A stretch of DNA of 56,440 nucleotides from a virus (taxonomy: Duplodnaviria > Caudoviricetes), in the IMG/VR virus record IMGVR_UViG_3300036983_000059, positions 1 through 56,440 of that record. One strand, written 5' to 3'. Each line of letters begins with the position of its first letter. Position 1 is the stretch's first letter. The translations under genes and the position numbers were made by a program. Of the stretch, positions 4,301 through 27,771 are shown in pieces. Below the pieces are notes generated by a model. It was given only the letters and a program-made list of their open reading frames with translations. It made no database searches and was not told where the DNA came from.

Positions 4301-4720
4301 TTTGCTTCTAGCGGAAGTAGCTCCCCATGCGTAACTTGGGATAATTCAGCTTCAAGTTGGTCAAACTCTTCCCCCTCTGGCTTATTCATTAAGTCATCTG
4401 TAGGCTTTAGAAGAGTATTATATGGAGTAACAGATACAGGCTGTTTAAGGCCATGGGGAAGTGCTGTAGTTGCTAGTGCACCAAGTACCAATGGGTCAAA
4501 TGCGAAATTATGTGTTTTATCAAAAAGCATATATATGGTTTTGAGAGACATTCCAGAAAATAAGGTAAAATGGTATAAATGGAGCGTAGGCGATTCATCG
4601 TGGACATTGTTATTCGATAAAACAATTTCTGCGTCATGTCCGCAAGACTTTTTACTCTCAGATAACACCAGGCTGTTATTAACTTATGATGATGGCAAAA
4701 TAGGGGTTTTTTACCCTTAG
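1394..4720 (+). CDS. Tail tip/hub protein with two inserted carbohydrate-binding-like domains and a C-terminal beta-propeller-like region
   Basis: Directly follows TMP. Hub-like segments (IFAGNI, SCVDY, WYLDYDKDLHF, GLRAGQLIDI). Two inserts start NKAIDGNF / NIVTNGSFE and end DLTEKFGAGKEP / NLTAKYGPGNEP. WNG/W repeats at the C-terminus. Confidence 0.75.
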   Translation: MAFTMTIGGSSRSWAKGTLQISDELNSRNTCSFTLLDGGDQFNGIENKAIDGNFTTMNNWIPAYGSGSIASNVYSLTGDGSQTVPRLYQIKSYSSSIEGKKFYVRATVRVTNSSCLNLALTLCDGLTPYRESVVAEEIDNPTINVWYELSGIVTIPNAWNTNDVIIYPYHCYGSAGDATGKVMQIKEVSLFDLTEKFGAGKEPPVNDVNALMNAIGWFDGAYTRDLMFNIGSEVIITKDTIKIFAGNIYEFDETKFGSIGVEYSISCVDYNQLLDRFFVAEAYENQTADVIIKAIIDTFVSGEGLTYANVQVAPIVSKAVFSYQKISDCITELADLLGYAWYLDYDKDLHFVSRESNSAPIYLSDNSLNFRDLSIKSTMADYRNSQYVRAGNDITSARTEILKGDGAKKSFTLKYPVAKVPSVASVVYSDLTNIVTNGSFESALSTGWAVTLNATIQSTTKKYGSSAVEVVASTSRAYCACARDGVFFVPNANSKYYMCAFGYLKSYTSGTLNITIRAATEGTASTTNYDTTKLNQWQKVSLIWDSTGATLTNVDYFCLRDNGIATGVFDIVVDGVVLINLTAKYGPGNEPTQVQMDDLFDDYFATFPTVAKTIGIQGVEENKDYYWNKGAKEITQDDSSASLTSADTLSITYQGLFPIIVEASSDNEIAERKAIEGGSGIYEEVIEAMELDTQESALEYAESILRKKGKIAKIVTFETDIDGLRAGQLIDINIVLHNLSGQYLISQVDKQDLSSATMRYKVTALSGEYLGGWVSFFKQLVKKDQTFVIRENEVLIRLRKFSENVTLTETFKATSAVANSLTNFAVNPYNPSKDIIIFNNELYDVHDYTTNYGILTKATEVDQSWSSASYNGDAGYSICNMIVHSNKLYGVATNSKLFEWNGVDAWVQKAAQYGSHTCAGVSLAIANNKLYALTVAGGLLEWNGTNAWAEKIASNGYSLHNLFSSGLNVFASSGSSSPCVTWDNSASSWSNSSPSGLFIKSSVGFRRVLYGVTDTGCLRPWGSAVVASAPSTNGSNAKLCVLSKSIYMVLRDIPENKVKWYKWSVGDSSWTLLFDKTISASCPQDFLLSDNTRLLLTYDDGKIGVFYP

Positions 4721-4733
4721 AAAGGAGTTAAGC

Positions 4734-5201
4734 ATGATTTTTAGTGATCAAGACAAAGCAAATGCAAACGTAAAAATTGAAGTAATAGATGTAAACACAA
4801 AAGAAATATTGCAAGTAATCGAAAAACATAATTTAGTTGTCACACTTGGAAGGTCTTTAATATGCGATCTTTTAGCAATGACAGTAGGTGTTACAGGTTT
4901 AAATTATTTTGCAGTTGGATTATCAACAACGGCAGTTACCCTTGCTGATATAAAACTAGGCACTGAGGAATTCAGAGACAGTTTTACTAAGGTTACCGTA
5001 TCTGGCAATAACGTCAAGTATCAATATTATCTAGCTTCTAGTGATGCAAATGGTCATACGCTTACGGAAGCAGGGCTATTTGGGGACAATGCCACGGGAA
5101 CGGCAGATACTGGAACTTTATTTGCAAGAGTTACTCATGATGGCATTTCAAAAGCAATTAATGTTGCAATAAATTATAGTTGGGATATAACATTTAATTA
5201 G
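4734..5201 (+). CDS. Tail/baseplate protein (tail-fibre N-terminal/collar-like fold)
   Basis: HNLVVTLG...YFAVG...TLTEAGLF...LFARV...YSWDITF pattern typical of tail-collar/baseplate proteins; AAGGAG RBS. Confidence 0.6.
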   Translation: MIFSDQDKANANVKIEVIDVNTKEILQVIEKHNLVVTLGRSLICDLLAMTVGVTGLNYFAVGLSTTAVTLADIKLGTEEFRDSFTKVTVSGNNVKYQYYLASSDANGHTLTEAGLFGDNATGTADTGTLFARVTHDGISKAINVAINYSWDITFN

Positions 5202-5212
5202 GAGGAAAGTTT

Positions 5213-5533
5213 ATGAATATTTATAATTTGCAAGAAATTATACTATTAATATCAGTAATTTTAGTTATAATTTTAATTTTTTTAAAATGGCAGCAAGCCA
5301 AGGCAATATTGTTTGCGTTAATGTTGCAAGCTAAAAGATATGCAAAAGATTCAATTTTAAATTCTGGGAAAGAGCAAGAGGATTGGGTCATAAAGCAAGC
5401 AATGAAATTTTTACCAATATCATTTAAATTGCTTGTGCCAGAGGAAATGATTAGAATTATAGTTATAAGGCTCTACAAGTCTCTTAAGGATTACTTAGAC
5501 GATGGGATAATAAATAACAGTAATAGCAAATAA
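5213..5533 (+). CDS. Putative holin
   Basis: N-terminal transmembrane helix; AKRYA...SGKEQEDWV resembles LL-H-type holins; lies upstream of the endolysin. Confidence 0.55.
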   Translation: MNIYNLQEIILLISVILVIILIFLKWQQAKAILFALMLQAKRYAKDSILNSGKEQEDWVIKQAMKFLPISFKLLVPEEMIRIIVIRLYKSLKDYLDDGIINNSNSK

Positions 5534-5576
5534 AAGTTTAAAGAAAAGCTTTTTAAAAACAATGGAGGGCGAGAAA

Positions 5577-5873
5577 ATGGAAGAAAACATGAATGCACTA
5601 TTGAATGAAAAAATTGAAAATCAAAGAAAAGATATTGATAGGTTGTATAATTTGTTTAACGAAACGCAATGTAAAATGAATGATACAGTGATTATTGTTA
5701 CAGAAATAAAAACATCTTTTGGCTCAGTCGTAAATACTGTTAACGAGATGAAAATAAAAATAGATAAAATTACAGAAGCTCCAGCTAATAATTGGACTAG
5801 CTTAACATCAACAATTTTGACTACATCAATTGGATTAACTTTAGGATATGTAGCAAGTAAGTTATTAAAATAG
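5577..5873 (+). CDS. Coiled-coil protein with C-terminal TM helix (XhlA/BhlA-like lysis accessory)
   Basis: Heptad coiled coil plus hydrophobic C-terminus; GGAGG RBS favours ATG 5577; adjacent to the endolysin. Confidence 0.5.
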   Translation: MEENMNALLNEKIENQRKDIDRLYNLFNETQCKMNDTVIIVTEIKTSFGSVVNTVNEMKIKIDKITEAPANNWTSLTSTILTTSIGLTLGYVASKLLK

Positions 5874-5884
5874 GAGGATAATAT

Positions 5885-6508
5885 ATGAACATAATAGAAG
5901 AAAAATACACATGGAAAGAAAGTTCAAAATTTGTAATTAGGCAAGAAACTAATTTTATTGTTGTGCATCATGCAGCTGCTATGTCGTGTACAGCTCAAGA
6001 TATTCATGGCTGGCATAGGCAAAAGGGTTGGACTGGCATAGGCTATCACTTTTTTGTAAATAAAAAAGGTGAAATATATAGAGGAAGGCCAGTTGAGGTA
6101 GAAGGCTCACACACTCTAGGCTTCAATAGCCAATCGATTGGAGTTTGTTTTGAAGGAAATTTTGAGCAAGAAGTAATGGATAGCAAAGAGCAAATAGCCT
6201 CAGGAGTGGAGTTAATTCAAAGCTTATTTAACCAATATAAAAAAGTTAGAGTCATTAGCCATAAAGGGTTAACCTCTACAGATTGCCCAGGAAAGAATTT
6301 TGATATATCTATTTTAGGTGTAATTAAAAAAGTTTCATTTAGATATAAAGATGATGAAAAAATTTCTGATTGGGCTAAAGAAGCAATTTATAAGTTGAAA
6401 GAAAAAGGCATAATGATTGGTGATGAAGAAGGGAATTTTAATCCAAAAGATATCATAACTAGAGAAGAGGTTGCAAAAGTTATTGCAAAATTGATAAATT
6501 TAATATAA
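5885..6508 (+). CDS. Endolysin: N-acetylmuramoyl-L-alanine amidase (Amidase_2) plus SLH domain
   Basis: IVVHHAA, GWTGIGYHF, IYRGRP, SIGVCFEGNF, SHK, DCPGKNF. C-terminal SDWAKEAI...GIMIG...FNPKDIITREE is an SLH motif. Confidence 0.93.
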   Translation: MNIIEEKYTWKESSKFVIRQETNFIVVHHAAAMSCTAQDIHGWHRQKGWTGIGYHFFVNKKGEIYRGRPVEVEGSHTLGFNSQSIGVCFEGNFEQEVMDSKEQIASGVELIQSLFNQYKKVRVISHKGLTSTDCPGKNFDISILGVIKKVSFRYKDDEKISDWAKEAIYKLKEKGIMIGDEEGNFNPKDIITREEVAKVIAKLINLI

Positions 6509-6518
6509 GTCAAACATA

Positions 6519-6548
6519 ACCCTCACTAACAAGTGGGGGATTTTTTTA
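6519..6548 (+). terminator. Rho-independent terminator after the lysis genes
   Basis: CCCTCACT...AGTGGGGG stem followed by a T run. Confidence 0.75.
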
Positions 6549-6554
6549 TAGTTT

Positions 6555-6648
6555 TTTATAAAAATATTTAAAAAAGTTTATAAAAAAGTGTTTACTTTTG
6601 CTCAAGAAAGTGTATAATAATATCAAGAGAAAGAAACAAACAAAAAAA
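6555..6648 (+). promoter_or_regulatory. sigmaA-like promoter cassette, copy 1
   Basis: -35 TTTACT 6591-6596, -10 TATAAT 6613-6618, AT-rich upstream element. 93/94 identical to 26825-26918. Confidence 0.85.
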
Positions 6649-7115: not shown

Positions 7116-7176
7116 TAAAAATATTTAAAAAAAGTTTTAAAAAACTATTTACAAAAGCAAAATGTTTGTGTATAAT
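7116..7176 (+). promoter_or_regulatory. sigmaA-like promoter
   Basis: TTTACA 7148-7153, 17-bp spacer, TATAAT 7171-7176; shares the AAAAATATTTAAAAAAAGTTT upstream block. Confidence 0.8.
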
Positions 7177-7208
7177 AAAAATACTAAATTTATTAAGGAG
7201 GTAAAAAA

Positions 7209-7676
7209 ATGCTTTACTTTATTATTAGTGGTAATATGCAAAAAGGAAGAATAAAACAAATTTGTTTAACTGCTAGAAGTGAAGGACTCGCTAGCATTGA
7301 GAATGCAAAATTAGTTTTTAAAGGTGAATATACGTTTGGTTGGCCAAGTATTGAAAAATGTAAAGGAAGTTCGGTTAATGGAGTATTATATGATATTGCA
7401 GAATCTGATTTTATTAACATAGAGAAACAAGAGATGTTTAGAAAAGACATAAAGAAGAAAAGAGCCACTATAATAAAAAAAGATGGTAAAGAAGTGAAAG
7501 CAGTAATTTTTGTAGTTGAGTCAGAAAAAAGTAGATATGAAATGCCTCTAAAAGAATGCATATTAGGAATGGCAAGGGGGTATTATGACTATAAAATAGA
7601 CATTGGCGTTTTAGAAAAAGCTTTAGAAGAAAATTATAAAAATTATTATGATTTAACGATTTTAGAACAATATTAA
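7209..7676 (+). CDS. Divergent gamma-glutamylcyclotransferase (GGCT/AIG2-like) protein
   Basis: Aligns by eye with the GGCT at 28023 (ENAKLVF vs ENAKLCF; VNGVLYDI vs VYCAIYEV), but the YGSN motif is replaced by ISGN. Confidence 0.6.
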   Translation: MLYFIISGNMQKGRIKQICLTARSEGLASIENAKLVFKGEYTFGWPSIEKCKGSSVNGVLYDIAESDFINIEKQEMFRKDIKKKRATIIKKDGKEVKAVIFVVESEKSRYEMPLKECILGMARGYYDYKIDIGVLEKALEENYKNYYDLTILEQY

Positions 7677-9357: not shown

Positions 9358-10170
<813 letters not shown>

Positions 10171-10171: not shown

Positions 10172-10510
10172 ATGAATGACAGGTTTCAAGAAATTTTTGA
10201 TAAACAAAAATCTTTGCAAACTCTGTTAACTGAGAAGGAGCATCCTGGAGAATATCCAGAGCTTCTTCCAGGCCATATAACGGGCTTAATGTCAGAGTTA
10301 GGTGAAATATTAGCAGAACATCAAGGCTGGAAACACTGGAAGAAAAATAAAAAAGAAGTTGTATGGGAAAATGTAAAAGAAGAAGTTGTGGATGCTTTTC
10401 ATTATATGATAAACATTGCATTGGTTTTAAAAATGGATGCTGATGATTTGTATGATGGTTTTATAAAGAAAAATAAAGAAAACATAGAAAGACAAAATTC
10501 TAATTATTAG
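10172..10510 (+). CDS. All-alpha dNTP pyrophosphatase (dimeric dUTPase/dCTPase family)
   Basis: Q..LQ, SELGEIL, WKHWK, KEEVVDAFHY, KNKENIERQ..NY motifs. Likely start is ATG 10172; the poly-Met extension is an artefact. Confidence 0.85.
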   Translation: MNDRFQEIFDKQKSLQTLLTEKEHPGEYPELLPGHITGLMSELGEILAEHQGWKHWKKNKKEVVWENVKEEVVDAFHYMINIALVLKMDADDLYDGFIKKNKENIERQNSNY

Positions 10511-10523
10511 GAGGAAATAACAA

Positions 10524-10826
10524 ATGAGAAAGGCAATGATAGTTCAACCGATGAATGGGTTAGCCGATGAAGAAATATTGGAAGTTAAAGCTAAAGCCAC
10601 AGAAAGATTAAACCAATTAGGGTTTGATGTTGTTAATACATTTTTTGAACATGGTATTACAGCATTAGGAGTGAAGAATAGACTATTGTACTTATTGGCA
10701 AAATCACTTGAGAAAATGAGTCTATGTGATGCAGTTTATTTTTGCAAGGGGTGGGAAAATGCTAGAGGTTGTAAAATTGAACATGAAGTAGCAGAGGCAT
10801 ACGGAATAGAAATAATCTATCAATAA
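10524..10826 (+). CDS. DUF4406-like / nucleoside deoxyribosyltransferase-fold protein
   Basis: QPMNGL...CDAVYFCKGWENARGCKIEHEVA. Confidence 0.75.
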   Translation: MRKAMIVQPMNGLADEEILEVKAKATERLNQLGFDVVNTFFEHGITALGVKNRLLYLLAKSLEKMSLCDAVYFCKGWENARGCKIEHEVAEAYGIEIIYQ

Positions 10827-10845
10827 TTAAATTTTAGGAGGGAAT

Positions 10846-11379
10846 ATGATAATAATTTTAGAAGGAGTTAACAGAGTTGGAAAAACTACTTTAGCACAAT
10901 ATTTGCAAAATAAATATAATATAACTTATTTTAACGATAGATGCTTTATAGATAATACTAGAAGCGATGTAAGCAGAGTAATGCAAGATATAAAAACAGC
11001 AACTATTGCAAACTTTAACTTGTTAAAGTGTTTGAAGGAAGATATAATAGTTGATAGATTCCATTTAACTGAATTTGTGTATGGCTATATGGATAGAAAT
11101 TATTATGCTGGATATTTTTATGATTTAGATGCTGAATTAAGTAAGATTGGCGCTAAATTAATCTTATTAACAGATGATATAAGTGAAATAAATAAAAGAG
11201 CATCAAGAAACATGATACAACACTTTACGATGATGAACAATGCATTTGATGCTAGCTTGATGAACAAAATTAAATATAATTTAGGTAAAGATGATTTGAA
11301 CAAATTAGTTGAATGGCTTGGGCTAAAACCTAATGAAACTAAAAGCTATGAAGAAGAACAAATTGCCATAATTAATTGA
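10846..11379 (+). CDS. Deoxynucleoside monophosphate kinase (thymidylate-kinase-like)
   Basis: IIILEGVNRVGKTT P-loop; IIVDRFHLTEFVYG...R. Confidence 0.85.
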   Translation: MIIILEGVNRVGKTTLAQYLQNKYNITYFNDRCFIDNTRSDVSRVMQDIKTATIANFNLLKCLKEDIIVDRFHLTEFVYGYMDRNYYAGYFYDLDAELSKIGAKLILLTDDISEINKRASRNMIQHFTMMNNAFDASLMNKIKYNLGKDDLNKLVEWLGLKPNETKSYEEEQIAIIN

Positions 11380-11398
11380 AAACAATAGGAGGCAATAA

Positions 11399-12334
11399 AT
11401 GAAAATTGGAATGTACAAAATTGGGAAAAAAATAATATTTGGAGATGAGCATGATGATAAAAATTGTTATGCTCATGAATTTATAACATTAGCAAAAATC
11501 TTTGTTAAATTTGGTCATGAAGTAGTAATACTTAGTGAAGTTGAGTTTTGCAAAGATTTTGGAATTAGAAAAGCAACTTCATTAGAAAATTTCGATATAA
11601 TTTATTTTTTAAGTGGTGGCTTAGAAGATAATTTATTTTTTACATTTACAAATTTAAGGCAAAGGTCTAGAAGAATTGGATTTATAATAACTGACTTAAG
11701 ATGTACTCTTGAAGATCGATTTTATCAATTCGTAGATAAAGTTTTTACACAATCTAATTTTAACATATCGGATATAAAAGCAATGCAAGGTTATAATGGA
11801 ATGCCACAATCAATATTTTTTGAAGAAGATCAATATAGTTTTTATAATAATGTAATACAAGATAAAACAAAAGAAATTGTTTTTGGTGGAACTGAAAGAA
11901 ACAGAACGCAACACTTTTGTGAATACGTTTATAGGCCTAATGTAGAGTTTTATGGCAAGTCAGATACATTTAATTTAAAAGATAATAGAGTTGGCTTTAA
12001 TGAGTTTGCGAAGGTGCTGAGAGGGGCAAAATATTCTATAATAATAGCCGATGATTATTATTATGAAAATGGCTTTGTAACTCAAAGGTATTGTGATTGC
12101 ATTTTAAATGATGTAATACCATTAGTTGATGAAAACTATGATTTTGGTGAAATTTTTATAAACAAATATGATTATAGAAGAGTTGCTAACTTTACTGATG
12201 TAATTGAAAAAATTAATACATTTAATAAAAATGATAATATTCGTATAGATATTTTGTTTAAACAAAAAGAAAAAATACCAAAATCTGCATTCACTGGAGA
12301 ACTAACAATTGGATGCTTAATGGATTGGAGATAA
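11399..12334 (+). CDS. bgt: DNA beta-glucosyltransferase homolog (T4 BGT-like, GT-B fold)
   Basis: Colinear matches to T4 BGT as recalled: FIITDLR (YLFTDIR, catalytic Asp); KTKEIVFGG..R (KTLDVIYGG..R); NVEFYG (NIEFFG); IIIAD..Y...FVTQR...LVDENYD (LIIGD..Y...FITLR...LIDEEFD). Confidence 0.8.
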   Translation: MKIGMYKIGKKIIFGDEHDDKNCYAHEFITLAKIFVKFGHEVVILSEVEFCKDFGIRKATSLENFDIIYFLSGGLEDNLFFTFTNLRQRSRRIGFIITDLRCTLEDRFYQFVDKVFTQSNFNISDIKAMQGYNGMPQSIFFEEDQYSFYNNVIQDKTKEIVFGGTERNRTQHFCEYVYRPNVEFYGKSDTFNLKDNRVGFNEFAKVLRGAKYSIIIADDYYYENGFVTQRYCDCILNDVIPLVDENYDFGEIFINKYDYRRVANFTDVIEKINTFNKNDNIRIDILFKQKEKIPKSAFTGELTIGCLMDWR

Positions 12335-12336
12335 AA

Positions 12337-13239
12337 ATGATAAAAGTAGAAACATTTGCTGAAGTGTATGAAAAAATGAGGCCATTGTTATTAAATGCTG
12401 ATGAAGTTTCTCCTAGAGGAATGAAAACGAAAGAAATTTTAAATGGTTCATTTTGCATAACTAACCCGAGAAGTAGATTAGTGTATCATAAAGATAGAAA
12501 GTTTAATTTAATTTATGCAATAGCAGAGTCGTTATTATTGTTTGACTCTAGCAATGAAGTAAAATATTATTCTTTCTTTAATCAAAAAATGTATGATTTT
12601 TCAGATGATGGGAAAACATTAAATGGCTGTTATGGCAAAAGAGTTAATCACTTGATTAGTAGATTTGTTGATAAGTTAAAAAATGATAAAGATACTCGTC
12701 AAGCAATTTTAACAATATATTGTAATGATTTCAAAAGTAAAACAAAAGATACTCCATGCACGTTAAACTTGCATTGTATGATTAGAAATAATAAGTTAAA
12801 TTTACATGTATATATGAGATCAAACGATTTTATATGGGGAACTCAATATGATGTATTTAATTTTACAATGTTTCAAGAAGTAATTGCAAATGAACTTGGA
12901 ATTGATGTTGGCGAATATTATCACACAGCAAGTTCATTACACGTTTATGAGCAACACTTTGAAATGTTAGAAAATATTGAAAAAGTAGAACAAATAGATT
13001 TTGTAAATCCATGCAAAATATATGAAATGAGATCAGCAGCGTTATTAATGAAAATGAAAATTGATGGAATTGTTGGAGCAACTATTGAGCATAGAAATAA
13101 GTTTGTTAGAATGATAACAAATGAGATGAGATATAAAAAGAAACAAACGGTAAAAGAGTTAGAAAATGATTTAATGTTTGCAAAAAACTTTGTCAAAAGA
13201 TGGTACAAGGATGGAGATGAAAAAAATGTCATTTTGTAA
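12337..13239 (+). CDS. Thymidylate-synthase-fold enzyme, dCMP hydroxymethylase type
   Basis: DTRQA, catalytic TPCT, MRSNDFIWGTQYD, SLHVYE. Asp stands at the base-specificity position where ThyA has Asn. Confidence 0.8.
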   Translation: MIKVETFAEVYEKMRPLLLNADEVSPRGMKTKEILNGSFCITNPRSRLVYHKDRKFNLIYAIAESLLLFDSSNEVKYYSFFNQKMYDFSDDGKTLNGCYGKRVNHLISRFVDKLKNDKDTRQAILTIYCNDFKSKTKDTPCTLNLHCMIRNNKLNLHVYMRSNDFIWGTQYDVFNFTMFQEVIANELGIDVGEYYHTASSLHVYEQHFEMLENIEKVEQIDFVNPCKIYEMRSAALLMKMKIDGIVGATIEHRNKFVRMITNEMRYKKKQTVKELENDLMFAKNFVKRWYKDGDEKNVIL

Positions 13240-15853
13240 TAATCATCGGCATGATCAATACTCTACTTTTGACGGATTTGGAACGCCAAAGAATGCTGCT
13301 AAGTATGCTAAAGAATTAGGTCAAACTGCTCTTGGAATTGCAAATCATGGGAATGTTAATGGAATAATAGATCATTACTTCGCTTGCAAGGAAGTGGGAA
13401 TAAAGCCAATACTTGGCGTTGAAGCATATTTTCAACCAAAGTTTGATAAAGAAAAGAAAAATAGTCACTTATGCCTATACGCTCAAAACAAAATAGGTTA
13501 TTCCAATATTATGAAAATAATTTCGAAAGCCAATGAATGTAATTTTTATAGATATCCAGTTGTAGATTTTGATCTCTTAGAGCAACACAATGAAGGAGTA
13601 ATAGCAACTTCTGCTTGTGTTGCTGGATATATTCCAAGATTATTGGAAGCAAAAAAATTTGATGTTGCAGAAAAAGCTCTTATTAAATTTAAAACTATTT
13701 TTAAGAATAGATTCTTTTTAGAAGTAATGTCAATAGAAATAACAGATGATGGACTTCAAAAAAGATCTAATGAAGCAATAATTAAATTAGGCAAAAAGCA
13801 TAAAGTGCCTATAATTTTAACTTGTGATAGTCATTTTATAGAGAAAGATGATTATGATAGCTATTTAATAATGCATGCAATTGGTAATAAAACTCCTTAT
13901 GGAGATTATTCAAAAAAGTATATGCCTTCTGAAAAAGAAGTTTTATCACAGTTTAAACAAATGCATGGTTATTCAGGTCAAGAATTTGCTGACAACACGC
14001 AAAAGATAGCAGATATGTGTGAAGATGATTATTTACATTTTGATGAGATGATCACAAAGCTTGATTGGGGAAAACCATCTAAAGAAAAACTAAAAGAATT
14101 AGCAGTTAAAAGTTTAAAAAAGCAAAATAAATTTAGTGATGTTTACAAAGCTAGATTAAAGAAAGAACTAGAAACAATATTTGGGCTTGGATTTGAAGAT
14201 TATTTTTTATTATGCTATGACATTATAAAATTTGCAATTGATTCAAATATAGCAATTGGAAAAGGCAGAGGCTCAGTGTGTGGAAGTCTATTAGCATATT
14301 CATTAGGATTAACTGATGTTGATCCAATAATATTAGGAACAATGTTTGAAAGATTTTTAAGGCCTGATAAAAAGAAAATGCCTGATATTGATATGGACTT
14401 TGGTCAAGATAGACGTGGAGAAGTAATTGAATATGTAATGAATAAACACAAAGGGAAAGCAGCACAAATAGCAACATTTGGGTATTATAAAGTAAAAAAT
14501 TTAGCAAATGATTTAGCAAAAGTATTCAAAATGGAAAAACAAGAGATTGTATTATTTAAACACATCTTAGAGTTAAAAGTAGGAGAAAAAGAATCAGTAG
14601 ATTTTAATTATTTAATAAAAGACATAAACTTAAAGACATTAAACTCAAAATACAAAAACATAGTGAAGCATTTTTCTAAATTATATGGTCAAATTCGCTT
14701 CATAGGAAAGCATGCAGCTGGTGTAGCAATAACAGTTGATGACATAACAAATTACACAGCAGTTATAAGATCTTCTGGAGGATTTCAAACAGCCTTTGAT
14801 TTAAATTGCTTAGGCAAAATAAATGTTTTAAAAATGGATATATTAGGATTAACCACAGCTTCAGCCATACATGAAGCAGAACAAATGGCTGGAACAGAGT
14901 TTTCATATGATATGTTAGAAGATGAAGAGCTTTTAGAAGAGTTTAGAAATGGCAATACAAATGGAATTTTTCAGTTTGAAAAAGAATCCGCAAAAGATAT
15001 TTTAAGAAAAATAAATGTTGAAACAATACAAGACGTAATTTCAGCAAGTGCATTAAATAGACCCGCTCCAATTCAATTAGGTGTATTAGATAAATTTATA
15101 GATGCAAAAATAAATGGAAATATAGACAAGAAAGCTGCTTGGTATAAATATACTAAAGATACTTATGGAACTATAATATACCAAGAACATGTAATGAAAA
15201 TTTGCAGAGGGTTAGCAAAAATGGAATGGAATGACGTTGATAAAATAATGAAAAATTTAAGAACAGGAAATGAAGAAGGAATTGATCCTCTTGAAATAAA
15301 ATTTATTGAAGGAGCTAAAGAACATTCAGGAATGTCAAGGAAAGAAGCAAAAAAATTATATGAGTCAATGACATTATATTTGTTTAATAAAGGGCATGGG
15401 GCTGGCTATGGTTTATTATCTTTTTATCAAATGCATTTAAAACATTATCACCCTTTAGAGTTTTGGTATGCAATGTTAAAATTTGAAAGTGATGATATAA
15501 AACGAGATATTTATAAGAGTTGTGCAGTTCAAGGAGGAGTTGTTTTGTTATTGCCTCATGTTAATGGTAAAGCAGAATATTCAATTTCAAAGCTGCAAGG
15601 AGATGAAGTTGTTCAAGAGGGGTTGTCTTCAATAAAAAATGTAGGATTAAAATCTGCTAAAGAAATAGAAAGACTTGGTCCGTTCAAAGACAAAGCAGAC
15701 TTTTTAGCAAAAGTTCCGAAAAGAGCAGCAAACTCAAGAGTTGTACAAGCGTTAGAAGATGCAGGAGCCCTAGAGTTTGATAGAAAAAGATTTTTAAACA
15801 GAACAATAAGATGGAACTCGTCTTTAAACAATAGACAAATCAAAGTTTGGTAA
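13226..15853 (+). CDS. dnaE: DNA polymerase III alpha subunit (DnaE-like)
   Basis: PHP domain (HRHDQYSTFDG, IKPILGVEAY, DSHF); GRGS..GSL; FERFL; MPDIDMDF; KMDILGL; IFQFE; IIYQE; FNKGH. Confidence 0.95.
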   Translation: MSFCNNHRHDQYSTFDGFGTPKNAAKYAKELGQTALGIANHGNVNGIIDHYFACKEVGIKPILGVEAYFQPKFDKEKKNSHLCLYAQNKIGYSNIMKIISKANECNFYRYPVVDFDLLEQHNEGVIATSACVAGYIPRLLEAKKFDVAEKALIKFKTIFKNRFFLEVMSIEITDDGLQKRSNEAIIKLGKKHKVPIILTCDSHFIEKDDYDSYLIMHAIGNKTPYGDYSKKYMPSEKEVLSQFKQMHGYSGQEFADNTQKIADMCEDDYLHFDEMITKLDWGKPSKEKLKELAVKSLKKQNKFSDVYKARLKKELETIFGLGFEDYFLLCYDIIKFAIDSNIAIGKGRGSVCGSLLAYSLGLTDVDPIILGTMFERFLRPDKKKMPDIDMDFGQDRRGEVIEYVMNKHKGKAAQIATFGYYKVKNLANDLAKVFKMEKQEIVLFKHILELKVGEKESVDFNYLIKDINLKTLNSKYKNIVKHFSKLYGQIRFIGKHAAGVAITVDDITNYTAVIRSSGGFQTAFDLNCLGKINVLKMDILGLTTASAIHEAEQMAGTEFSYDMLEDEELLEEFRNGNTNGIFQFEKESAKDILRKINVETIQDVISASALNRPAPIQLGVLDKFIDAKINGNIDKKAAWYKYTKDTYGTIIYQEHVMKICRGLAKMEWNDVDKIMKNLRTGNEEGIDPLEIKFIEGAKEHSGMSRKEAKKLYESMTLYLFNKGHGAGYGLLSFYQMHLKHYHPLEFWYAMLKFESDDIKRDIYKSCAVQGGVVLLLPHVNGKAEYSISKLQGDEVVQEGLSSIKNVGLKSAKEIERLGPFKDKADFLAKVPKRAANSRVVQALEDAGALEFDRKRFLNRTIRWNSSLNNRQIKVW

Positions 15854-19636: not shown

Positions 19637-19708
19637 ACAAAAACAATATAATGATAAGGCTTTTAACTAAATGTAAGATATAAGCCTTTTAAAGGCAAAG
19701 TAGGCAGC

Positions 19709-19769
19709 TAAAAAATATTTTAATTATTTTATAAAAAGTTGTTTACTTTTCCTGCATTTAGGATATAAT
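19709..19769 (+). promoter_or_regulatory. sigmaA-like promoter
   Basis: TTTACT 19742-19747, TATAAT 19764-19769, AT-rich upstream block. Confidence 0.7.
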
Positions 19770-19820
19770 AGGATTATAGAAAAAAACAACTCGAAAACAA
19801 TAAGTTAAGGAGAAAACAAA

Positions 19821-20252: not shown

Positions 20253-20747
20253 ATGGCGAAAAATTGGTTACCAAAAGAAGCTTTTAAAGCGATCAAAGAA
20301 AACGACAAAGAAGGAATTAATGATTTTGCAAGAAGATTTCCAAATGCAGCAATTGCAATAGCAACACAAAATATTGAAGCAGTTTTAAATGCTCTTCCTG
20401 ATTACATGACATTGAGGAAGCTAGAATCAACTTTAAAAGGTGATATTGAAAATGTTGAAGAAGATTCAGAAGAAGAAGTTGCAGAAGAAAAGCCTGCTAA
20501 AAAAGAAGTAAAAAAGGAAGAGCCAAAGAAGGCTGTTAAAAAAGAAGAAATTAAACCATCAAAGAAAAAAGTAGTAGTTGAAGAAGAAGACGAAGATGAG
20601 GACGAGGACGAAGATTTTGATGATGAAGATGAGGACAAAGAAGAGGAAGAAGTAAAGCCTGCTAAGAAAAAAGTTAAAAAAGAAGAGCCAAAAAAACCAC
20701 TAAAGAAAGCAAAAAAAGTTGAAGATGATGATTTAGATGATTTTTAA
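20253..20747 (+). CDS. Hypothetical protein with a blocky acidic/Lys-rich disordered C-terminus
   Basis: AAGGAG RBS; repeated KKEEPKK and poly-D/E blocks. Confidence 0.7.
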   Translation: MAKNWLPKEAFKAIKENDKEGINDFARRFPNAAIAIATQNIEAVLNALPDYMTLRKLESTLKGDIENVEEDSEEEVAEEKPAKKEVKKEEPKKAVKKEEIKPSKKKVVVEEEDEDEDEDEDFDDEDEDKEEEEVKPAKKKVKKEEPKKPLKKAKKVEDDDLDDF

Positions 20748-20784: not shown

Positions 20785-20820
20785 AAAAAAAGCGCAGATA
20801 AAATTTCTGTGCTTTTTTTA
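20785..20820 (+). terminator. Rho-independent terminator
   Basis: AAAAAAGCGCAGA...TCTGTGCTTTTTT. Confidence 0.8.
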
Positions 20821-20889
20821 TTTATAAAAATATTTAAAAAAGTTTTCAAAAACATGTTTACTTTTGCTCAAGAAAGTGTATAATAATAT
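20821..20889 (+). promoter_or_regulatory. sigmaA-like promoter cassette, copy 2
   Basis: TTTACT 20857-20862 and TATAAT 20879-20884; spacer TTTGCTCAAGAAAGTG is identical to copies 1 and 3. Confidence 0.85.
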
Positions 20890-20924
20890 TAGGAAGTAAA
20901 AAAAAACGTTGGAGGAAATAAAAA

Positions 20925-21161
20925 ATGAGCATTAAAATAAACAACATGATAATTAATTCGTCATCATCAAAGCATATTACGTTTACTTATCCAGGATTTG
21001 AAAACATGATTGATTATAACAGCAAAATGGTAACACCTGATTTAAACATGGCTATATACAGAGATTTGGAGCAATTTGGAATACACAGCAACAACGTAAA
21101 AGAAATAAGCTTCAATAATCATTATAAATATATGATTGCAATACTGGAGGGGGAGCAATGA
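20925..21161 (+). CDS. Hypothetical protein
   Basis: GGAGG RBS after promoter copy 2. Confidence 0.55.
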   Translation: MSIKINNMIINSSSSKHITFTYPGFENMIDYNSKMVTPDLNMAIYRDLEQFGIHSNNVKEISFNNHYKYMIAILEGEQ

Positions 21162-21736: not shown

Positions 21737-21747
21737 GGAGGCAAGAT

Positions 21748-22197: not shown

Positions 22198-22214
22198 TTG
22201 TAAGGAGAAAAAAT

Positions 22215-23216: not shown

Positions 23217-23240
23217 AAATAAAGAAATGTAGGTGAATAA

Positions 23241-25647: not shown

Positions 25648-25825
25648 TTTGATTGCAATAATAAACGAAGCAATAAATAAAAACAATATATATGAAGGAA
25701 AATGGATTAATTTAATAGATACGCATCATAATAGAACGATAGTAAAAGTTGAAGAAACTGCATATGATGAGTATCGCAGTGTTAGAAAAAGTAAAATGTT
25801 TAAAGTAACAGTGGAGGAAATATGA
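25640..25825 (+). CDS. Hypothetical protein
   Basis: GGGGG RBS; stop overlaps the next start. Confidence 0.5.
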   Translation: MNDLIAIINEAINKNNIYEGKWINLIDTHHNRTIVKVEETAYDEYRSVRKSKMFKVTVEEI

Positions 25826-26802
25826 TGGGAAGAAAAACTTGGGATGAATATTTTATGGACATAGCAAGCAAAGTAGCTGAAAGATCAACATGCGATAGAG
25901 CAATGATTGGTGCGGTGATTGTAAAAGATAAAAAAATAATAGGAACTGGGTACAATGGAGCGCCAAGTGGCCAAGAGCAATGCGATGAAGTTGGACATTT
26001 GCTAATAAACAATCACTGCGTTAGAAGCATACATGCTGAAGTAAATGCAATACTCCAAGGGCTTGAAAAGCACTCTCTAGAAGGTGCAACTTTATATTGT
26101 ACGCATAGGCCATGTATAGAATGCAGTAAATTGATTATTCAAGTAGGGATAAAAGAAGTTTGGTATGAAAGTGAATATGTAGATAATCGTTGCAAAGAAT
26201 TTGGGGTTAGTATTCAAGATGAATTGCTAGAAAAAGCAGGGATAAAAGTTGTTAATATTAATAAAAAAAATAAAGACGTAATTGTTTGCATAGTTGGCGA
26301 GTCAGGAAGTGGTAAAACTTCTATAGTAAAAAATCTTGAAGCAAGAAGATTTAATGTAATTCATTCATACACAACGAGAGAGCCAAGGGAAGAAAATGAA
26401 TATGGGCATATTTTTTCAAACATAGGTCAATATGAAAAAGACTTGTCGTCTAATTCAGTAATAGCAGAAACAATTTTTGGAGCAAATGCTTATTGGGCGA
26501 CAAAAGAGCAATATGAAGGGAAAGGAATTACTTTTTATGCAATTGATCCAAAAGGCGTTGATAAATTAAGAAAAGCTATAAAAGATAAAATAGTGGTAGT
26601 TCAAATTACAGCCAGTCGTTTAACGAGAATAAAACGTTTATTTTTGCAAGGCTTTACAGAAGAGCAAGTTAATGAAAGGATTGAAAGGGATGAAGGAAAA
26701 TTTACTAATTTTTATAAAGATTATACTATAAGTAATGATGGGGATTTTCATGAAGCCATTCTTGGAATAGAAGACATTTTATTTAAACTATTTTTAAGCT
26801 AG
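25822..26802 (+). CDS. dCMP deaminase fused to a guanylate-kinase-like domain
   Basis: WDEYFM..A...RSTC, GYNG, IHAEVNAI, PCIEC; then GESGSGKT, SYTTREPRE, IDPKG. Confidence 0.9.
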   Translation: MMGRKTWDEYFMDIASKVAERSTCDRAMIGAVIVKDKKIIGTGYNGAPSGQEQCDEVGHLLINNHCVRSIHAEVNAILQGLEKHSLEGATLYCTHRPCIECSKLIIQVGIKEVWYESEYVDNRCKEFGVSIQDELLEKAGIKVVNINKKNKDVIVCIVGESGSGKTSIVKNLEARRFNVIHSYTTREPREENEYGHIFSNIGQYEKDLSSNSVIAETIFGANAYWATKEQYEGKGITFYAIDPKGVDKLRKAIKDKIVVVQITASRLTRIKRLFLQGFTEEQVNERIERDEGKFTNFYKDYTISNDGDFHEAILGIEDILFKLFLS

Positions 26803-26824
26803 TTAAATCAACTAGCTTTTTTTA
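26797..26824 (+). terminator. Rho-independent terminator
   Basis: AGCTAGTT-AAATC-AACTAGCT followed by a T run. Confidence 0.8.
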
Positions 26825-26918: not shown

Positions 26919-26938
26919 ACATTTTGGGGGGAAAAAAC

Positions 26939-27745: not shown

Positions 27746-27771
27746 GCAGCTTCCTATGGAGGGAAAGCAAA

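What the first reader, a model, noticed from the sequence alone, without database searches (positions are those of the whole stretch)
10172..13239. T4-style glucosyl-hydroxymethylcytosine pathway in a Gram-positive siphophage using DnaE
Seen: one operon next to DnaE encodes an all-alpha dNTP pyrophosphatase, a dNMP kinase, a GT-B protein colinear with T4 beta-glucosyltransferase (TDLR with the catalytic Asp) and a TS-fold enzyme reading RSNDFIWGTQYD. Established: Asp at this position selects dCMP (T4 gp42), whereas Asn selects dUMP (ThyA, SPO1 hydroxymethylase). T4 uses dCTPase, gp42, dNMP kinase and BGT to make glucosyl-hmC. A dCMP deaminase at 25822 would complete the T4 logic. Inference: cytosines in this genome are replaced by glycosylated 5hmC as protection against restriction and CRISPR. 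This is best known from T-even myoviruses with PolB, not from a 56-kb Bacillota siphovirus with DnaE.
Basis: partly seen in the sequence, partly recalled or inferred. Interest (0 to 1): 0.85.

Follow-up and report, generated by a model that had tools for sequence, protein, structure and literature searches.

The report
Phage hydroxymethylcytosine-plus-sugar DNA modification operon
An uncultured low-GC tailed phage carries, next to its DNA polymerase, a gene set predicted to replace cytosine in its DNA with sugar-decorated hydroxymethylcytosine, a known anti-restriction strategy that a lineage of related phages shares.

Summary
Positions 10172-13239 encode, in order:
- a gp56-like all-alpha NTP pyrophosphatase;
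- a thymidylate-kinase-fold kinase;
- a true sequence and fold homologue of T4 beta-glucosyltransferase, with the catalytic Asp in TDLR;
- a thymidylate-synthase-fold enzyme.

DnaE follows directly.

Every published specificity determinant of the TS-fold enzyme points to 5-hydroxymethyl-dCMP synthesis:
- Asp at the E. coli N177 position (cytosine);
- Asp at the L143 position (hydroxymethyl rather than methyl);
- Asp169 kept (not a 5-hydroxy-dCMP synthase);
- Ser and Arg at the MilA Ala176 and Lys133 positions (deoxyribose).

The block order MazG-kinase-GT-TS-DnaE-RecA recurs in 16 of 80 related IMG/VR loci. A homologous GT and TS also sit beside DnaE in the cultured Agathobaculum phage AB434P2.

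The sugar is unknown, and no chemistry has been tested. A 2023 preprint already surveys BGT-like GT-B enzymes paired with TS homologues in metaviromes. This is a new member, and a lineage, of a known kind, with moderate interest.

The parts
7127..7180 (+). Promoter-like repeat (TTTACA...TATAAT type). It is the nearest such element upstream of the replication/modification gene block.
   Evidence: It is one of 3 copies of a 54-nt direct repeat (7127, 29789, 33484). A second family of 4 copies lies at 6552, 19703, 20818 and 26822. That it acts as a promoter is inferred, not tested.
10172..10510 (+). All-alpha NTP pyrophosphatase (MazG / dimeric-dUTPase superfamily). Predicted dCTPase/dUTPase that supplies dCMP and keeps dCTP out of DNA.
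   Evidence: Pfam dUTPase_2 at 2.4e-19. PHROG 173 at 3.8e-21. BLASTP to T4 gp56 gives 3e-11 with 27% identity over 142 columns, and the two share the C-terminal KNKxNxERQ..Y motif. Homologues sit upstream of the TS homologue in L002 and L004. Substrate specificity is inferred.
10524..10826 (+). DUF4406 protein (nucleoside 2-deoxyribosyltransferase-like). Its role is unknown and it is not part of the conserved module.
   Evidence: Pfam DUF4406 at 2.7e-10 and PHROG 355 at 1.1e-18. There is no significant PDB sequence match (one hit at E 0.2, taken as chance). It is found in 58 unrelated phage records. It is absent from 0 of 80 related loci, meaning none of the 80 holds it.
10846..11379 (+). Thymidylate-kinase-fold dNMP kinase. 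Predicted to convert 5hmdCMP to 5hmdCDP.
   Evidence: It aligns with the kinases next to the GT in L002, L003 and L004, sharing the P-loop E6/G7/G12/K13 and the DR motif D70-R71. The profile's best PDB hits are SPbeta YorR 2axp at 4e-9, then thymidylate kinases. A homologue lies within 7 kb in 47 of 80 related loci and in 20 of the 23 with a GT. The substrate is inferred.
11399..12334 (+). GT-B DNA glycosyltransferase of the T4 beta-glucosyltransferase family. Predicted to glycosylate 5hmC in DNA. The catalytic Asp99 codon is at 11693-11695.
   Evidence: The A1 profile matches T4 BGT residues 1-333 at 3e-16, with TD(L/I)R on D100. The AF2 model has pLDDT 81.4, and Foldseek's top PDB hits are 1qkj and 1nzd, both T4 BGT, at 1.8e-11 and TM 0.65/0.59. 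In tblastn against 50,697 phage records, 26 of 26 hits are T-even-type phage records, 23 annotated as a beta-glucosyltransferase and 3 as hypothetical or unannotated.
12337..13239 (+). TS-fold pyrimidine hydroxymethylase, predicted 5-hydroxymethyl-dCMP synthase. Key residues are Cys141 (12757-12759), Asp138 (L143 position), Ser162, Asp164 (D169 position), Asp172 (N177 position, 12850-12852) and Arg121.
   Evidence: The best PDB sequence hit is MilA CMP hydroxymethylase at 6.5e-24. The AF2 model has pLDDT 93.1, and Foldseek's top hits are MilA at 7e-22 with TM 0.81-0.84. All 120 of the 120 best database homologues have Asp at the N177 position.
13214..15853 (+). DnaE-type DNA polymerase III alpha subunit, the replicative polymerase that would have to accept 5hmdCTP. 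The start codon is either ATG 13214 or TTG 13178, and both overlap the end of the TS gene.
   Evidence: NCBIfam polc at 3.3e-174. The closest phage relatives are MT837767 (44.6%) and Agathobaculum phages AB434P2/P3 (42%).
25822..26802 (+). dCMP deaminase fused to a guanylate-kinase-like P-loop domain. A likely dUMP/dTMP supply arm, analogous to T4 cd, in a separate transcription unit.
   Evidence: Pfam dCMP_cyt_deam_1 at 1.6e-28 over residues 6-115 and Guanylate_kin at 1.8e-7 over residues 155-321. PDB hits are 2hvv at 1.1e-34 and guanylate kinases around 6e-6. A deaminase lies within 7 kb of the TS homologue in 28 of 80 related loci. The kinase domain is found in 0 of 80.

Best explanation
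The block 10172-13239 is a nucleotide-level cytosine-replacement module plus a DNA glycosyltransferase.

Proposed sequence of events, all inferred from homology:
1. The gp56-like pyrophosphatase hydrolyses dCTP (and dUTP) to the monophosphate. This depletes dCTP and feeds dCMP onward.
2. The TS-fold enzyme transfers a methylene from methylene-tetrahydrofolate to C5 of dCMP through Cys141. Water then attacks the intermediate, giving 5-hydroxymethyl-dCMP.
3. The thymidylate-kinase-fold kinase makes the diphosphate, and host NDP kinase makes 5hmdCTP.
4. The phage DnaE polymerase incorporates 5hmdC in place of dC.
5. After replication the BGT-family GT-B enzyme flips out 5hmC and transfers a sugar to its hydroxyl, using Asp99 as general base. 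The donor is a host nucleotide-sugar, possibly UDP-glucose, but its identity is unknown.
6. The distant dCMP deaminase fusion supplies dUMP for thymidylate.

The expected benefit is resistance of virion DNA to restriction enzymes and possibly to Cas nucleases.

What is shown here is the homologies, the determinant residues and the conserved synteny. Substrates, the sugar, the extent of replacement and the protective effect are all inferred.
For: TS-fold enzyme:
- Asp172 lies in the column that is Asp in T4 gp42 and Asn in SPO1 gp29.
- Asp138 lies three residues before the catalytic Cys, as in T4 gp42, SPO1 gp29 and MilA.
- Asp164 is kept, where the 5-hydroxy-dCMP synthase RB69 gp48 has Asn.
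- These rules were read in PMC13326640, sections 24 and 28.
- Ser162 and Arg121 occupy the positions of MilA Ala176 and Lys133, which set ribo versus deoxy preference (alignment; PMC5175136 passages).
- The best structural match is the hydroxymethylase MilA at 7e-22 with TM 0.81-0.84. Thymidylate synthases score around 1e-14 and the phage HY126 dCMP hydroxylase around 1e-14 to 1e-13.
- All 120 of 120 listed homologues have Asp at the N177 position.

GT:
- The profile gives a full-length match to T4 BGT at 3e-16 with the catalytic Asp aligned.
- Foldseek's top hits are T4 BGT.
- Asp99, Arg167, Arg169 and Arg230 are invariant in the 9-member family.
- All 26 phage-database hits lie in T-even-type phage records, 23 of them annotated as a beta-glucosyltransferase.

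Pyrophosphatase: BLASTP to T4 gp56 gives 3e-11.

Context:
- All 4 of 4 loci found with the GT profile also hold a kinase next to the GT and an Asp-type TS homologue in the same record. Two of them (L002, L005) gave identical gene lists.
- Of 80 loci found with the TS profile, 23 hold a BGT-family GT within 7 kb and 19 hold both GT and DnaE.
- 16 hold MazG, kinase, GT and DnaE together, in the window's order.
- The cultured Agathobaculum phage AB434P2 has a GT homologue (hhalign probability 95.5%, E 1.4e-8), an Asp-type TS, DnaE and RecA side by side.
Against: - No chemistry has been done. Everything rests on homology.
- The GT is only about 18% identical to BGT in the structural alignment, so its acceptor (hmC versus hmU) and its donor are not fixed by homology.
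- The sugar donor is unidentified. A search of the window for the one sugar-nucleotide family I looked for, the cytidylyltransferase-like family, found none. Relatives L002, L004 and AB434P2 do carry such genes, which argues that sugars other than glucose are used in this family.
- The pyrophosphatase's Pfam name and best PDB hit are dUTPases, so dCTP hydrolysis is assumed from the gp56 analogy.
- The kinase's single-sequence evidence is weak and its specificity is unknown.
- C-containing palindromes are under-represented: GCGC at 0.44, CGCG at 0.30, CCGG at 0.54 and GATC at 0.66 of expectation. This is not what complete protection of cytosines would predict, although it is weak evidence.
- The closest relative by DnaE, MT837767, has no intact GT at the corresponding position. 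It has only a 3e-7 partial match.
- The record is rated 66% complete.
Confidence: 0.7

Rival explanations
1. The enzyme makes 5hmdCMP, but the dCMP-deaminase fusion converts much of it to 5hmdUMP. The modified base in DNA would then be 5-hydroxymethyluracil replacing thymine, and the GT would glycosylate hmU, in the manner of base J.
For: A dCMP deaminase fused to a nucleotide kinase is present. The window holds no ThyA or ThyX besides the Asp-type enzyme. Passages of bioRxiv 10.1101/2024.12.05.627091 report that some phage deaminases from cytosine-modifying contigs yield 5hmdU when 5hmdC nucleotides are supplied.
Against: The deaminase lies 12.6 kb away, behind two further promoter-like repeats. 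Only 9 of the 23 GT-bearing related loci have a deaminase within 7 kb. The GT's only sequence and fold relatives of known acceptor act on 5hmC. In T4 and Xp12 a dCMP deaminase coexists with cytosine replacement (roles recalled).
Confidence: 0.08
2. 5hmC is made and incorporated, but the GT-B protein glycosylates something other than DNA, such as a cell-envelope polymer or a protein. The DNA would carry bare 5hmC.
For: GT-B enzymes are very diverse. Foldseek also lists BshA, MshA and WaaG at 1e-6 to 1e-5. The 2023 preprint notes that about 65% of GT hits in metagenomes have no neighbouring base-modification gene.
Against: T4 BGT is the only PDB sequence hit and the best hit by about five orders of magnitude in Foldseek E-value. 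The gene is wedged between the nucleotide kinase and the hydroxymethylase inside the replication operon, and that position is conserved in 16 to 19 related loci.
Confidence: 0.1
3. The TS-fold enzyme makes a different C5 product: 5-methyl-dCMP as in Xp12, 5-hydroxy-dCMP as in RB69, or ordinary dTMP. The GT would then use another acceptor.
For: All of these activities occur within the same fold, and residue rules are imperfect. In my control alignment Xp12 has Asn, not a bulky hydrophobic residue, at the L143 position.
Against: Asp at the N177 position excludes a normal dUMP preference. Asp164 is kept, whereas every tested 5-hydroxy-dCMP synthase has Asn there (RB69 gp48). Asp at the L143 position matches the hydroxymethylases T4 gp42, SPO1 gp29 and MilA. 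The fold is closest to MilA. A methyl group would leave a BGT-type enzyme nothing to glycosylate.
Confidence: 0.07

Closest known systems
Phage T4 glucosyl-hydroxymethylcytosine system (gp56 dCTPase, gp42 dCMP hydroxymethylase, gp1 dNMP kinase, beta-glucosyltransferase, cd dCMP deaminase)
   Same: The logic and the set of activities are the same. The pyrophosphatase is detectably similar to gp56 (3e-11). The GT is a true BGT homologue with the catalytic Asp. The hydroxymethylase has the same determinant residues as gp42. In T4, b-gt and gene 42 are also adjacent.
   Different: - The hydroxymethylase belongs to the longer MilA/SPO1 gp29-like branch, not the gp42 branch.
- The kinase has the thymidylate-kinase/YorR fold.
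- The polymerase is DnaE, not family B.
- The genome is about 56 kb with a siphovirus-type tail module.
- No alpha-glucosyltransferase was seen.
- The sugar is unknown.
Metavirome GT-B 'BGT-like' DNA glycosyltransferase clusters paired with thymidylate synthase homologues (bioRxiv 10.1101/2023.12.21.572611; section 9 and passages read)
   Same: That survey reports GT-B DNA GTs with T4-BGT-like structure in IMG/VR and gut phage databases. About 28% are next to a TS homologue, and dCMP deaminase is an associated annotation. The window is an IMG/VR record of exactly this kind.
   Different: The enzymes tested there came from methyltransferase/TET-type clusters and added heptose, Kdo and other sugars. 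The pre-replicative TS-linked clusters were only counted. Whether this contig is in their lists could not be checked, because the supplements are closed.
MilA (CMP 5-hydroxymethylase, mildiomycin pathway) and SPO1 gp29 (dUMP hydroxymethylase)
   Same: These are the closest characterised relatives of the TS-fold enzyme. MilA scores 6.5e-24 by sequence and TM 0.81-0.84 by fold, including the C-terminal extension. SPO1 gp29 is 32% identical over 91% of the query.
   Different: MilA has Ala176 and Lys133 and prefers ribo-CMP, whereas the window has Ser162 and Arg121. SPO1 gp29 has Asn at the N177 position and uses dUMP, whereas the window has Asp.
RB69/DLP3 arabinosyl-5-hydroxycytosine system (PMC13326640) and Xp12 5-methylcytosine system
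   Same: All three use a pre-replicative TS-homologue route that starts from dCMP (Asp at the N177 position), followed by a dNMP kinase. In RB69, DNA glycosylation follows.
   Different: RB69 gp48 has Asn at the D169 position and Glu at the L143 position, and it makes 5-hydroxy-dCMP with a flavin. Xp12 has Asn at the L143 position and makes 5-methyl-dCMP. The window matches neither pattern.
Agathobaculum phages AB434P2/P3 (cultured gut Clostridia phages, GenBank OP172633/OP172634)
   Same: DnaE is 42% identical. The locus holds a thymidylate-kinase-like gene, a GT homologous to the window's (hhalign 95.5%), an Asp-type TS homologue, DnaE and RecA in the same order.
   Different: AB434P2 adds an APH/choline-kinase-like gene and a cytidylyltransferase between the kinase and the GT, plus a second 361-aa protein after the TS. 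This suggests a self-made, non-glucose sugar donor. Its GenBank annotation calls the TS homologue a deoxyuridylate hydroxymethyltransferase, although the residue is Asp.

Membership tests
T4 beta-glucosyltransferase family (inverting GT-B DNA glycosyltransferases) | Two-Rossmann-domain GT-B fold that superposes on T4 BGT better than on other GTs | tested here: met
   The AF2 model has pLDDT 81.4 and pTM 0.81. Foldseek ranks 1 and 2 are T4 BGT at 1.8e-11 and 2.5e-10. The next hit, BshA, is at 1.3e-6.
T4 beta-glucosyltransferase family (inverting GT-B DNA glycosyltransferases) | Catalytic general-base Asp (T4 Asp100) | tested here: met
   Window Asp99 in TDLR aligns with T99-D100-I-R of BGT and is invariant in 9 of 9 family members. 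The importance of D100 is indicated by the title of PDB entry 1nzd, 'BGT-D100A mutant'.
T4 beta-glucosyltransferase family (inverting GT-B DNA glycosyltransferases) | Nucleotide-sugar binding residues of the C-terminal domain (the GGS-R-x-x-x-R and R-x-x-E motifs of BGT; residue roles recalled from the BGT literature, not from a call) | tested here: met
   GGTERNR (Arg167, Arg169) aligns with the GGSFRSGQR of BGT, and FVTQRYCD (Arg230, Asp233) aligns with FITLRVWE. The Arg residues are invariant in the family. The window has Asp where the other 8 members have Glu.
T4 beta-glucosyltransferase family (inverting GT-B DNA glycosyltransferases) | The acceptor is 5hmC in duplex DNA and the donor is UDP-glucose | not testable with these tools
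   Only context supports a DNA acceptor. The donor is unknown.
Pyrimidine (d)NMP hydroxymethylases of the thymidylate synthase fold, dCMP-specific type (T4 gp42 function) | TS fold with the catalytic Cys nucleophile | tested here: met
   Pfam Thymidylat_synt at 5.6e-22. Cys141 is invariant in alignments A2, A5 and A6. The model has pLDDT 93.1.
Pyrimidine (d)NMP hydroxymethylases of the thymidylate synthase fold, dCMP-specific type (T4 gp42 function) | Asp at the E. coli ThyA N177 position (cytosine rather than uracil) | tested here: met
   Asp172. The controls behave as expected: T4 gp42 has Asp and SPO1 gp29 has Asn. The rule was read in PMC13326640 and PMC5175136.
Pyrimidine (d)NMP hydroxymethylases of the thymidylate synthase fold, dCMP-specific type (T4 gp42 function) | Acidic residue at the L143 position (hydroxymethyl rather than methyl product) | tested here: met
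   Asp138 in the motif D-T-P-C. The same holds in T4 gp42 and SPO1 gp29 and in MilA. Xp12 has Asn. The rule was read.
Pyrimidine (d)NMP hydroxymethylases of the thymidylate synthase fold, dCMP-specific type (T4 gp42 function) | Asp169 retained (an Asn here marks flavin-dependent 5-hydroxy-dCMP synthases) | tested here: met
   Asp164 in RSND, whereas RB69 gp48 reads RSQN. The rule was read.
Pyrimidine (d)NMP hydroxymethylases of the thymidylate synthase fold, dCMP-specific type (T4 gp42 function) | Ser and Arg at the MilA Ala176 and Lys133 positions (deoxyribo substrate) | tested here: met
   Ser162 and Arg121 lie opposite MilA's Ala and Lys in the phmmer alignment. The rule is from passages of PMC5175136.
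Pyrimidine (d)NMP hydroxymethylases of the thymidylate synthase fold, dCMP-specific type (T4 gp42 function) | Close kinship to T4 gp42 itself | tested here: not met
   The protein is 25-26% identical to gp42. T4 dCMP hydroxymethylase is not among the 60 best of 130 PDB sequence hits nor among the listed Foldseek hits. MilA and SPO1 gp29 are closer.
T4 gp56-type dCTPase/dUTPase (all-alpha NTP pyrophosphatase) | All-alpha dimeric-dUTPase/MazG-type domain with detectable similarity to gp56 | tested here: met
   Pfam dUTPase_2 at 2.4e-19. BLASTP against T4 gp56 gives 3e-11. Twelve invariant columns are shared with the L002 and L004 homologues and with gp56.
T4 gp56-type dCTPase/dUTPase (all-alpha NTP pyrophosphatase) | Hydrolysis of dCTP | not testable with these tools
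   Specificity cannot be read from these alignments.
T4 gp1-type dNMP kinase | Sequence membership in the gp1 family | tested here: not met
   No T4 gp1 chain appears among the PDB hits of the protein or of its profile at E up to 1. That the PDB holds a gp1 structure is recalled, not checked. The best hits are SPbeta YorR and thymidylate kinases, so the protein may work like gp1 without being a member of that family.
5-hydroxymethylpyrimidine DNA kinases (5-HMUDK) | Similarity to the P-loop kinases of SP10, ViI, M6 and PhiW-14, and co-occurrence with aGPT-Pplase genes | tested here: inconclusive
   tblastn of the kinase against the phage collection gave only 2 hits, both annotated thymidylate kinases of Bacillus phages, and none in SP-10, which is in the collection. 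I made no direct profile comparison with a 5-HMUDK and did not search for aGPT-Pplase.

The most novel reading that the evidence does not exclude
A lineage of gut siphophages replicates fully 5hmC-substituted genomes with a bacterial-type DnaE polymerase and then glycosylates them. The lineage comprises at least 19 IMG/VR contigs with GT plus DnaE, together with the cultured Agathobaculum phages AB434P2/P3. Hosts are probably Clostridia. The sugars would differ between members: a host-supplied sugar here, and a self-made NDP-sugar where cytidylyltransferase, APH or HAD genes are present. This would be the first T4-like glycosyl-hmC system shown in phages of Gram-positive bacteria, and it would show that Pol III alpha enzymes can replicate with 5hmdCTP.
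Probability: 0.55. Interest if true: 0.55.

Novelty: new member of a known kind. Interest (0 to 1): 0.4.

Why it matters
If the prediction holds, glycosylated hydroxymethylcytosine is not a peculiarity of T-even myoviruses of enterobacteria. It would be a modular cassette (pyrophosphatase, kinase, GT, hydroxymethylase) that sits beside the polymerase gene in a lineage of low-GC DnaE phages, including cultured phages of human gut Clostridia.

This bears on three practical matters:
- how well such phages are recovered by sequencing and cloning;
- their resistance to restriction and CRISPR, which affects phage therapy or editing in gut commensals;
- new DNA glycosyltransferases and hydroxymethylases as reagents.

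The cultured relatives make the question directly testable by nucleoside mass spectrometry. The concept itself is already in print at survey level, so the gain is a concrete, well-annotated example and a lineage, not a new principle.

Tried and rejected
- DUF4406 (10524-10826) as part of the pathway: no significant PDB sequence match (one hit at E 0.2). None of the 80 related loci holds it. Its homologues are scattered over 58 unrelated phage records. I treat it as an accessory insertion of unknown role.
- The amidoligase, GGACT, transglutaminase, AAA_5 and vWA genes as part of the DNA modification: none of the 80 related loci holds the amidoligase, and these genes sit in other transcription units. 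I did not pursue them further.
- Clostridium phages CS266P1-4 share a 42% identical DnaE, but the 19.5-kb region I fetched shows no GT, kinase, pyrophosphatase or TS motif at E up to 1e-3. DnaE kinship does not always bring the module.
- MT837767, the closest DnaE and TS relative, has primase, SSB-like, MazG, kinase, a 383-aa HAD-like protein, two short ORFs, TS and DnaE. Only a partial 3e-7 match to the GT profile falls in one short ORF. The GT may be degraded there, or the record may be misassembled. This is unresolved.
- Host assignment from the capsid protein failed. The best hit is a Rhizobium phage at 44% and the rest are mixed. The endolysin is also mixed. Only DnaE and the kinase domain of the deaminase fusion point to Bacillota phages. 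No tRNA genes were found.
- Palindrome statistics show under-representation of several C-containing sites. I record this as weak counter-evidence, not as a test. Counts were made on both strands, so the printed z-scores are inflated.
- The C-3 residue count used a crude text pattern: 67 of the 76 loci with a motif gave Asp. The other 9 may be pattern errors and were not checked by alignment. In 4 of the 80 loci the motif pattern found nothing.
- Supplementary tables of bioRxiv 10.1101/2023.12.21.572611, bioRxiv 10.1101/2024.12.05.627091 and PMC13326640 could list this very contig or its relatives.
- Literature absence claims rest only. No paper in the held library combines 'Agathobaculum', 'phage' and 'hydroxymethyl'. 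None combines '5hmdC', 'phage', 'Gram-positive' and 'glycosyltransferase'.

Full report
WHAT THE WINDOW IS. The window is a whole IMG/VR virus record of 56,440 bp. It is classed as linear, and CheckV estimates 66% completeness. G+C is 0.26-0.38, and almost all long ORFs are on the + strand.

A tape-measure-like ORF runs off the 3' end (623 aa, from 54571). A frame with tape-measure similarity is open from base 3 to 1394. The contig is therefore cut inside that gene and may be close to a closed genome; this is an inference.

Between the head-tail adaptor and the tape measure the ORFs are 108, 124, 132, 64, 131, 268 and 115 aa long. Nothing there is the size of a tail sheath, which fits a siphovirus-type tail. 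Not every one of these ORFs was scanned against PHROGs.

Terminase, portal, protease and major capsid protein are present. Two families of promoter-like direct repeats (TTTAC.-N17-TATAAT) divide the early region into units. The finding lies in the unit that starts near 7127 and also holds primase, an SSB-like protein, DnaE, a RecA/UvsX-like protein, a Cas4-type nuclease and a RuvC-like resolvase.

THE OBSERVATION. It is confirmed in every named detail. It needs two additions. A DUF4406 gene (10524-10826) lies between the pyrophosphatase and the kinase. The dCMP deaminase at 25822 is fused to a guanylate-kinase-like domain.

THE TS-FOLD ENZYME (12337-13239). By sequence, the best solved relative is MilA, the CMP 5-hydroxymethylase of mildiomycin biosynthesis, at 6.5e-24. 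Thymidylate synthases follow from 1.8e-14.

Among phage records the best full-length hits are an unannotated human-faecal contig (40.6%) and SPO1 gp29, the dUMP hydroxymethylase (32%).

The AlphaFold model (pLDDT 93.1) matches MilA over nearly its whole length, at 7e-22 with TM 0.81-0.84. That is well ahead of thymidylate synthases and of the flavin-dependent dCMP hydroxylase of phage HY126, which score around 1e-14 to 1e-13.

I took the published residue rules from text I read:
- PMC13326640, sections 24 and 28, gives three rules in E. coli numbering. N177D selects dCMP. An acidic residue at L143 goes with a hydroxymethyl rather than a methyl product. D169N marks 5-hydroxy-dCMP synthases.
- PMC5175136, in passages, states that MilA Ala176 and Lys133 give ribo preference, whereas the deoxy-specific enzymes have Ser and Arg.

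The three residues listed are those at the L143, D169 and N177 positions.

| Enzyme | L143 | D169 | N177 | Known product |
|---|---|---|---|---|
| T4 gp42 | D | D | D | 5hmdCMP |
| RB69 gp48 | E | N | D | 5hodCMP |
| Xp12 TS | N | D | D | 5mdCMP |
| SPO1 gp29 | D | D | N | 5hmdUMP |
| Window enzyme | D | D | D | predicted 5hmdCMP |

The window enzyme also has Ser162 and Arg121. It therefore carries the full signature of a 5-hydroxymethyl-dCMP synthase, while belonging to the MilA/gp29 branch rather than the gp42 branch.

All 120 of the 120 best homologues in the 5.8-billion-protein collection also have Asp at the N177 position.

THE GLYCOSYLTRANSFERASE (11399-12334). The word-index search found only 8 relatives. 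The exhaustive profile search found 697 representative clusters at E up to 1e-3, of which 73 are at 1e-30 or better.

The 9-sequence profile aligns with T4 beta-glucosyltransferase from residue 1 to 333 at 3e-16. The family's invariant Asp99 falls on the catalytic Asp100, Glu27 falls on BGT's N-terminal Glu, and the GGTERNR and R-x-x-(E/D) motifs fall on BGT's corresponding motifs.

The model (pLDDT 81.4) has T4 BGT as Foldseek ranks 1 and 2, at 1.8e-11. Other GT-B enzymes follow from 1.3e-6.

In the 50,697-record phage collection, all 26 hits lie in T-even-type phage records. Of these, 23 are annotated as a beta-glucosyltransferase and 3 as hypothetical or unannotated. At tblastn sensitivity, then, no cultured phage outside that group shows the gene.

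The more sensitive profile comparison does find a full-length homologue in the cultured Agathobaculum phage AB434P2, at probability 95.5% and E 1.4e-8 over 289 columns.

THE OTHER TWO GENES. The 112-aa pyrophosphatase belongs to the all-alpha dUTPase_2/MazG superfamily. It is pairwise similar to T4 gp56 at 3e-11.

The kinase is weakly recognisable on its own. It is clearly homologous to the kinases beside the GT in other loci, with which it shares a P-loop and a DR motif. Their joint profile hits SPbeta YorR at 4e-9 and then thymidylate kinases.

CONTEXT. The four loci retrieved with the GT profile are phages with a family-B polymerase (Pfam-confirmed for the L002 protein only). Two of them, L002 and L005, gave identical gene lists. 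All four have a kinase next to the GT and an Asp-type TS homologue in the same record. L002, L004 and L005 have the order pyrophosphatase - TS - PolB - kinase - GT.

Local hmmsearch/phmmer at E up to 1e-5 found the following within 7 kb.

| Gene | Loci out of 80 |
|---|---|
| Thymidylate-kinase-like kinase | 47 |
| DnaE | 34 |
| dCMP deaminase | 28 |
| MazG-like pyrophosphatase | 26 |
| RecA | 25 |
| BGT-family GT | 23 |
| GT plus DnaE | 19 |
| GT, kinase, pyrophosphatase and DnaE together | 16 |

The 16 loci with all four genes have the window's order. None of the 80 loci held DUF4406, the amidoligase or the guanylate-kinase-like domain.

The window is thus one member of a lineage in which this cassette sits immediately upstream of dnaE.

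The nearest cultured DnaE relatives are phages of Agathobaculum and of a Clostridium-like genus, at 42% identity. AB434P2 carries the cassette with extra sugar-activation genes. The CS266P phages do not carry it. This is the best, though indirect, support for a Bacillota host. Capsid and endolysin comparisons were uninformative.

MECHANISM. The steps are set out under Best explanation. All enzymatic assignments are inferences from homology and determinant residues. The conserved cassette is direct sequence evidence that the four genes work together.

The sugar is open. The window has no cytidylyltransferase-like gene. Relatives L002, L004 and AB434P2 do have one. The 2023 preprint reports that a GT-B enzyme with a HAD/APH-like enzyme and a cytidylyltransferase makes heptosyl derivatives of hydroxymethylcytosine. 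A host-supplied donor such as UDP-glucose is therefore plausible here but unproven.

COUNTER-EVIDENCE. There is no chemistry. GT identity to BGT is low. The pyrophosphatase could be only a dUTPase. Kinase specificity is unknown. C-containing palindromes are under-represented. The closest relative lacks an intact GT. The record may be incomplete.

COMPARISON WITH WHAT IS KNOWN, AND NOVELTY. The logic is that of T4. The components are a mix: gp56-like and BGT-like proteins, a MilA/gp29-like hydroxymethylase, and a thymidylate-kinase-like kinase.

That TS homologues with Asp at the N177 position, dCMP deaminases and BGT-like GT-B enzymes co-occur widely in metaviromes is already in print:
- PMC8670742, passages;
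- bioRxiv 10.1101/2024.12.05.627091, passages;
- bioRxiv 10.1101/2023.12.21.572611, section 9 and passages.

My searches found no paper that ties such a pathway to Gram-positive phages or to the Agathobaculum phages. I therefore rate it a new member of a known kind, with interest 0.4. The main value is a cleanly annotated cassette, a defined DnaE-phage lineage and cultured relatives in which to test it.

Noticed in passing
window 10524-10826: A DUF4406 / nucleoside 2-deoxyribosyltransferase-like gene is inserted between the pyrophosphatase and the kinase. It is absent from all 80 related loci but 54% identical to a gene of an Aeromonas phage. A role as a nucleotide N-glycosidase acting on an unwanted nucleotide is conceivable but untested.
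   Followed up: partly
window 25822-26802: A dCMP deaminase is fused to a guanylate-kinase-like domain. The kinase domain has relatives annotated as guanylate kinase in Bacillus, Clostridium, Fusobacterium and Staphylococcus phages, but none in the 80 related loci.
   Followed up: partly
window 21158-24707, 26924-28445 and 7209-7676: Several genes suggest a peptide or amide-bond modification system of unknown target. They are a transglutaminase-like protein, an AAA_5 (MoxR-like) ATPase with a vWA protein, an Amidoligase_2 enzyme (7.8e-38) and two gamma-glutamyl-cyclotransferase-like (GGACT) proteins. PMC8989533 notes amidoligase matches in thymidine-hypermodification contigs.
   Followed up: no
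window 36954-38740: A radical SAM-SPASM enzyme and an ADP-ribosyltransferase (PF03496, 1.6e-19) lie between the terminase and the portal genes.
   Followed up: no
window 6552-6648, 19703-19799, 20818-20914, 26822-26918: A 97-nt promoter-like repeat occurs four times. The copies at 6552 and 26822 are 98% identical. A second 54-nt family occurs at 7127, 29789 and 33484.
   Followed up: no
window 41861-46789: A 1642-aa ORF sits inside the head module, between the head-morphogenesis and protease genes. It has only one PHROG match, of unknown function.
   Followed up: no
window 9358-10170 and 20568-20662: An SSB-like protein has a long Asp/Glu/Lys-rich tail that includes a run of Asp codons. A similar acidic repeat occurs in a second gene around 20.6 kb.
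   Followed up: no
window 54571-56439 and 3-1394: The tape-measure gene is split across the two ends of the record. This suggests a circularly permuted or nearly closed assembly despite the 66% completeness estimate.
   Followed up: partly
L008 (MT837767) 4120-6600: In the closest DnaE and TS relative, the GT position holds a 383-aa HAD-like protein and two short ORFs. One of the short ORFs keeps a partial (3e-7) match to the GT profile. This could be a decayed or frameshifted GT, or an alternative modification.
   Followed up: partly
L010 (OP172633, Agathobaculum phage AB434P2) 3838-4500: GenBank annotates this TS homologue as deoxyuridylate hydroxymethyltransferase, but it has Asp at the N177 position (RSCDLWYG-FPYD). 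That predicts a dCMP substrate.
   Followed up: yes
window, whole: Several palindromes are under-represented against a maximal-order Markov expectation: GAATTC 0.28, CGCG 0.30, GCGC 0.44, CCGG 0.54, GTAC 0.60 and GATC 0.66.
   Followed up: partly
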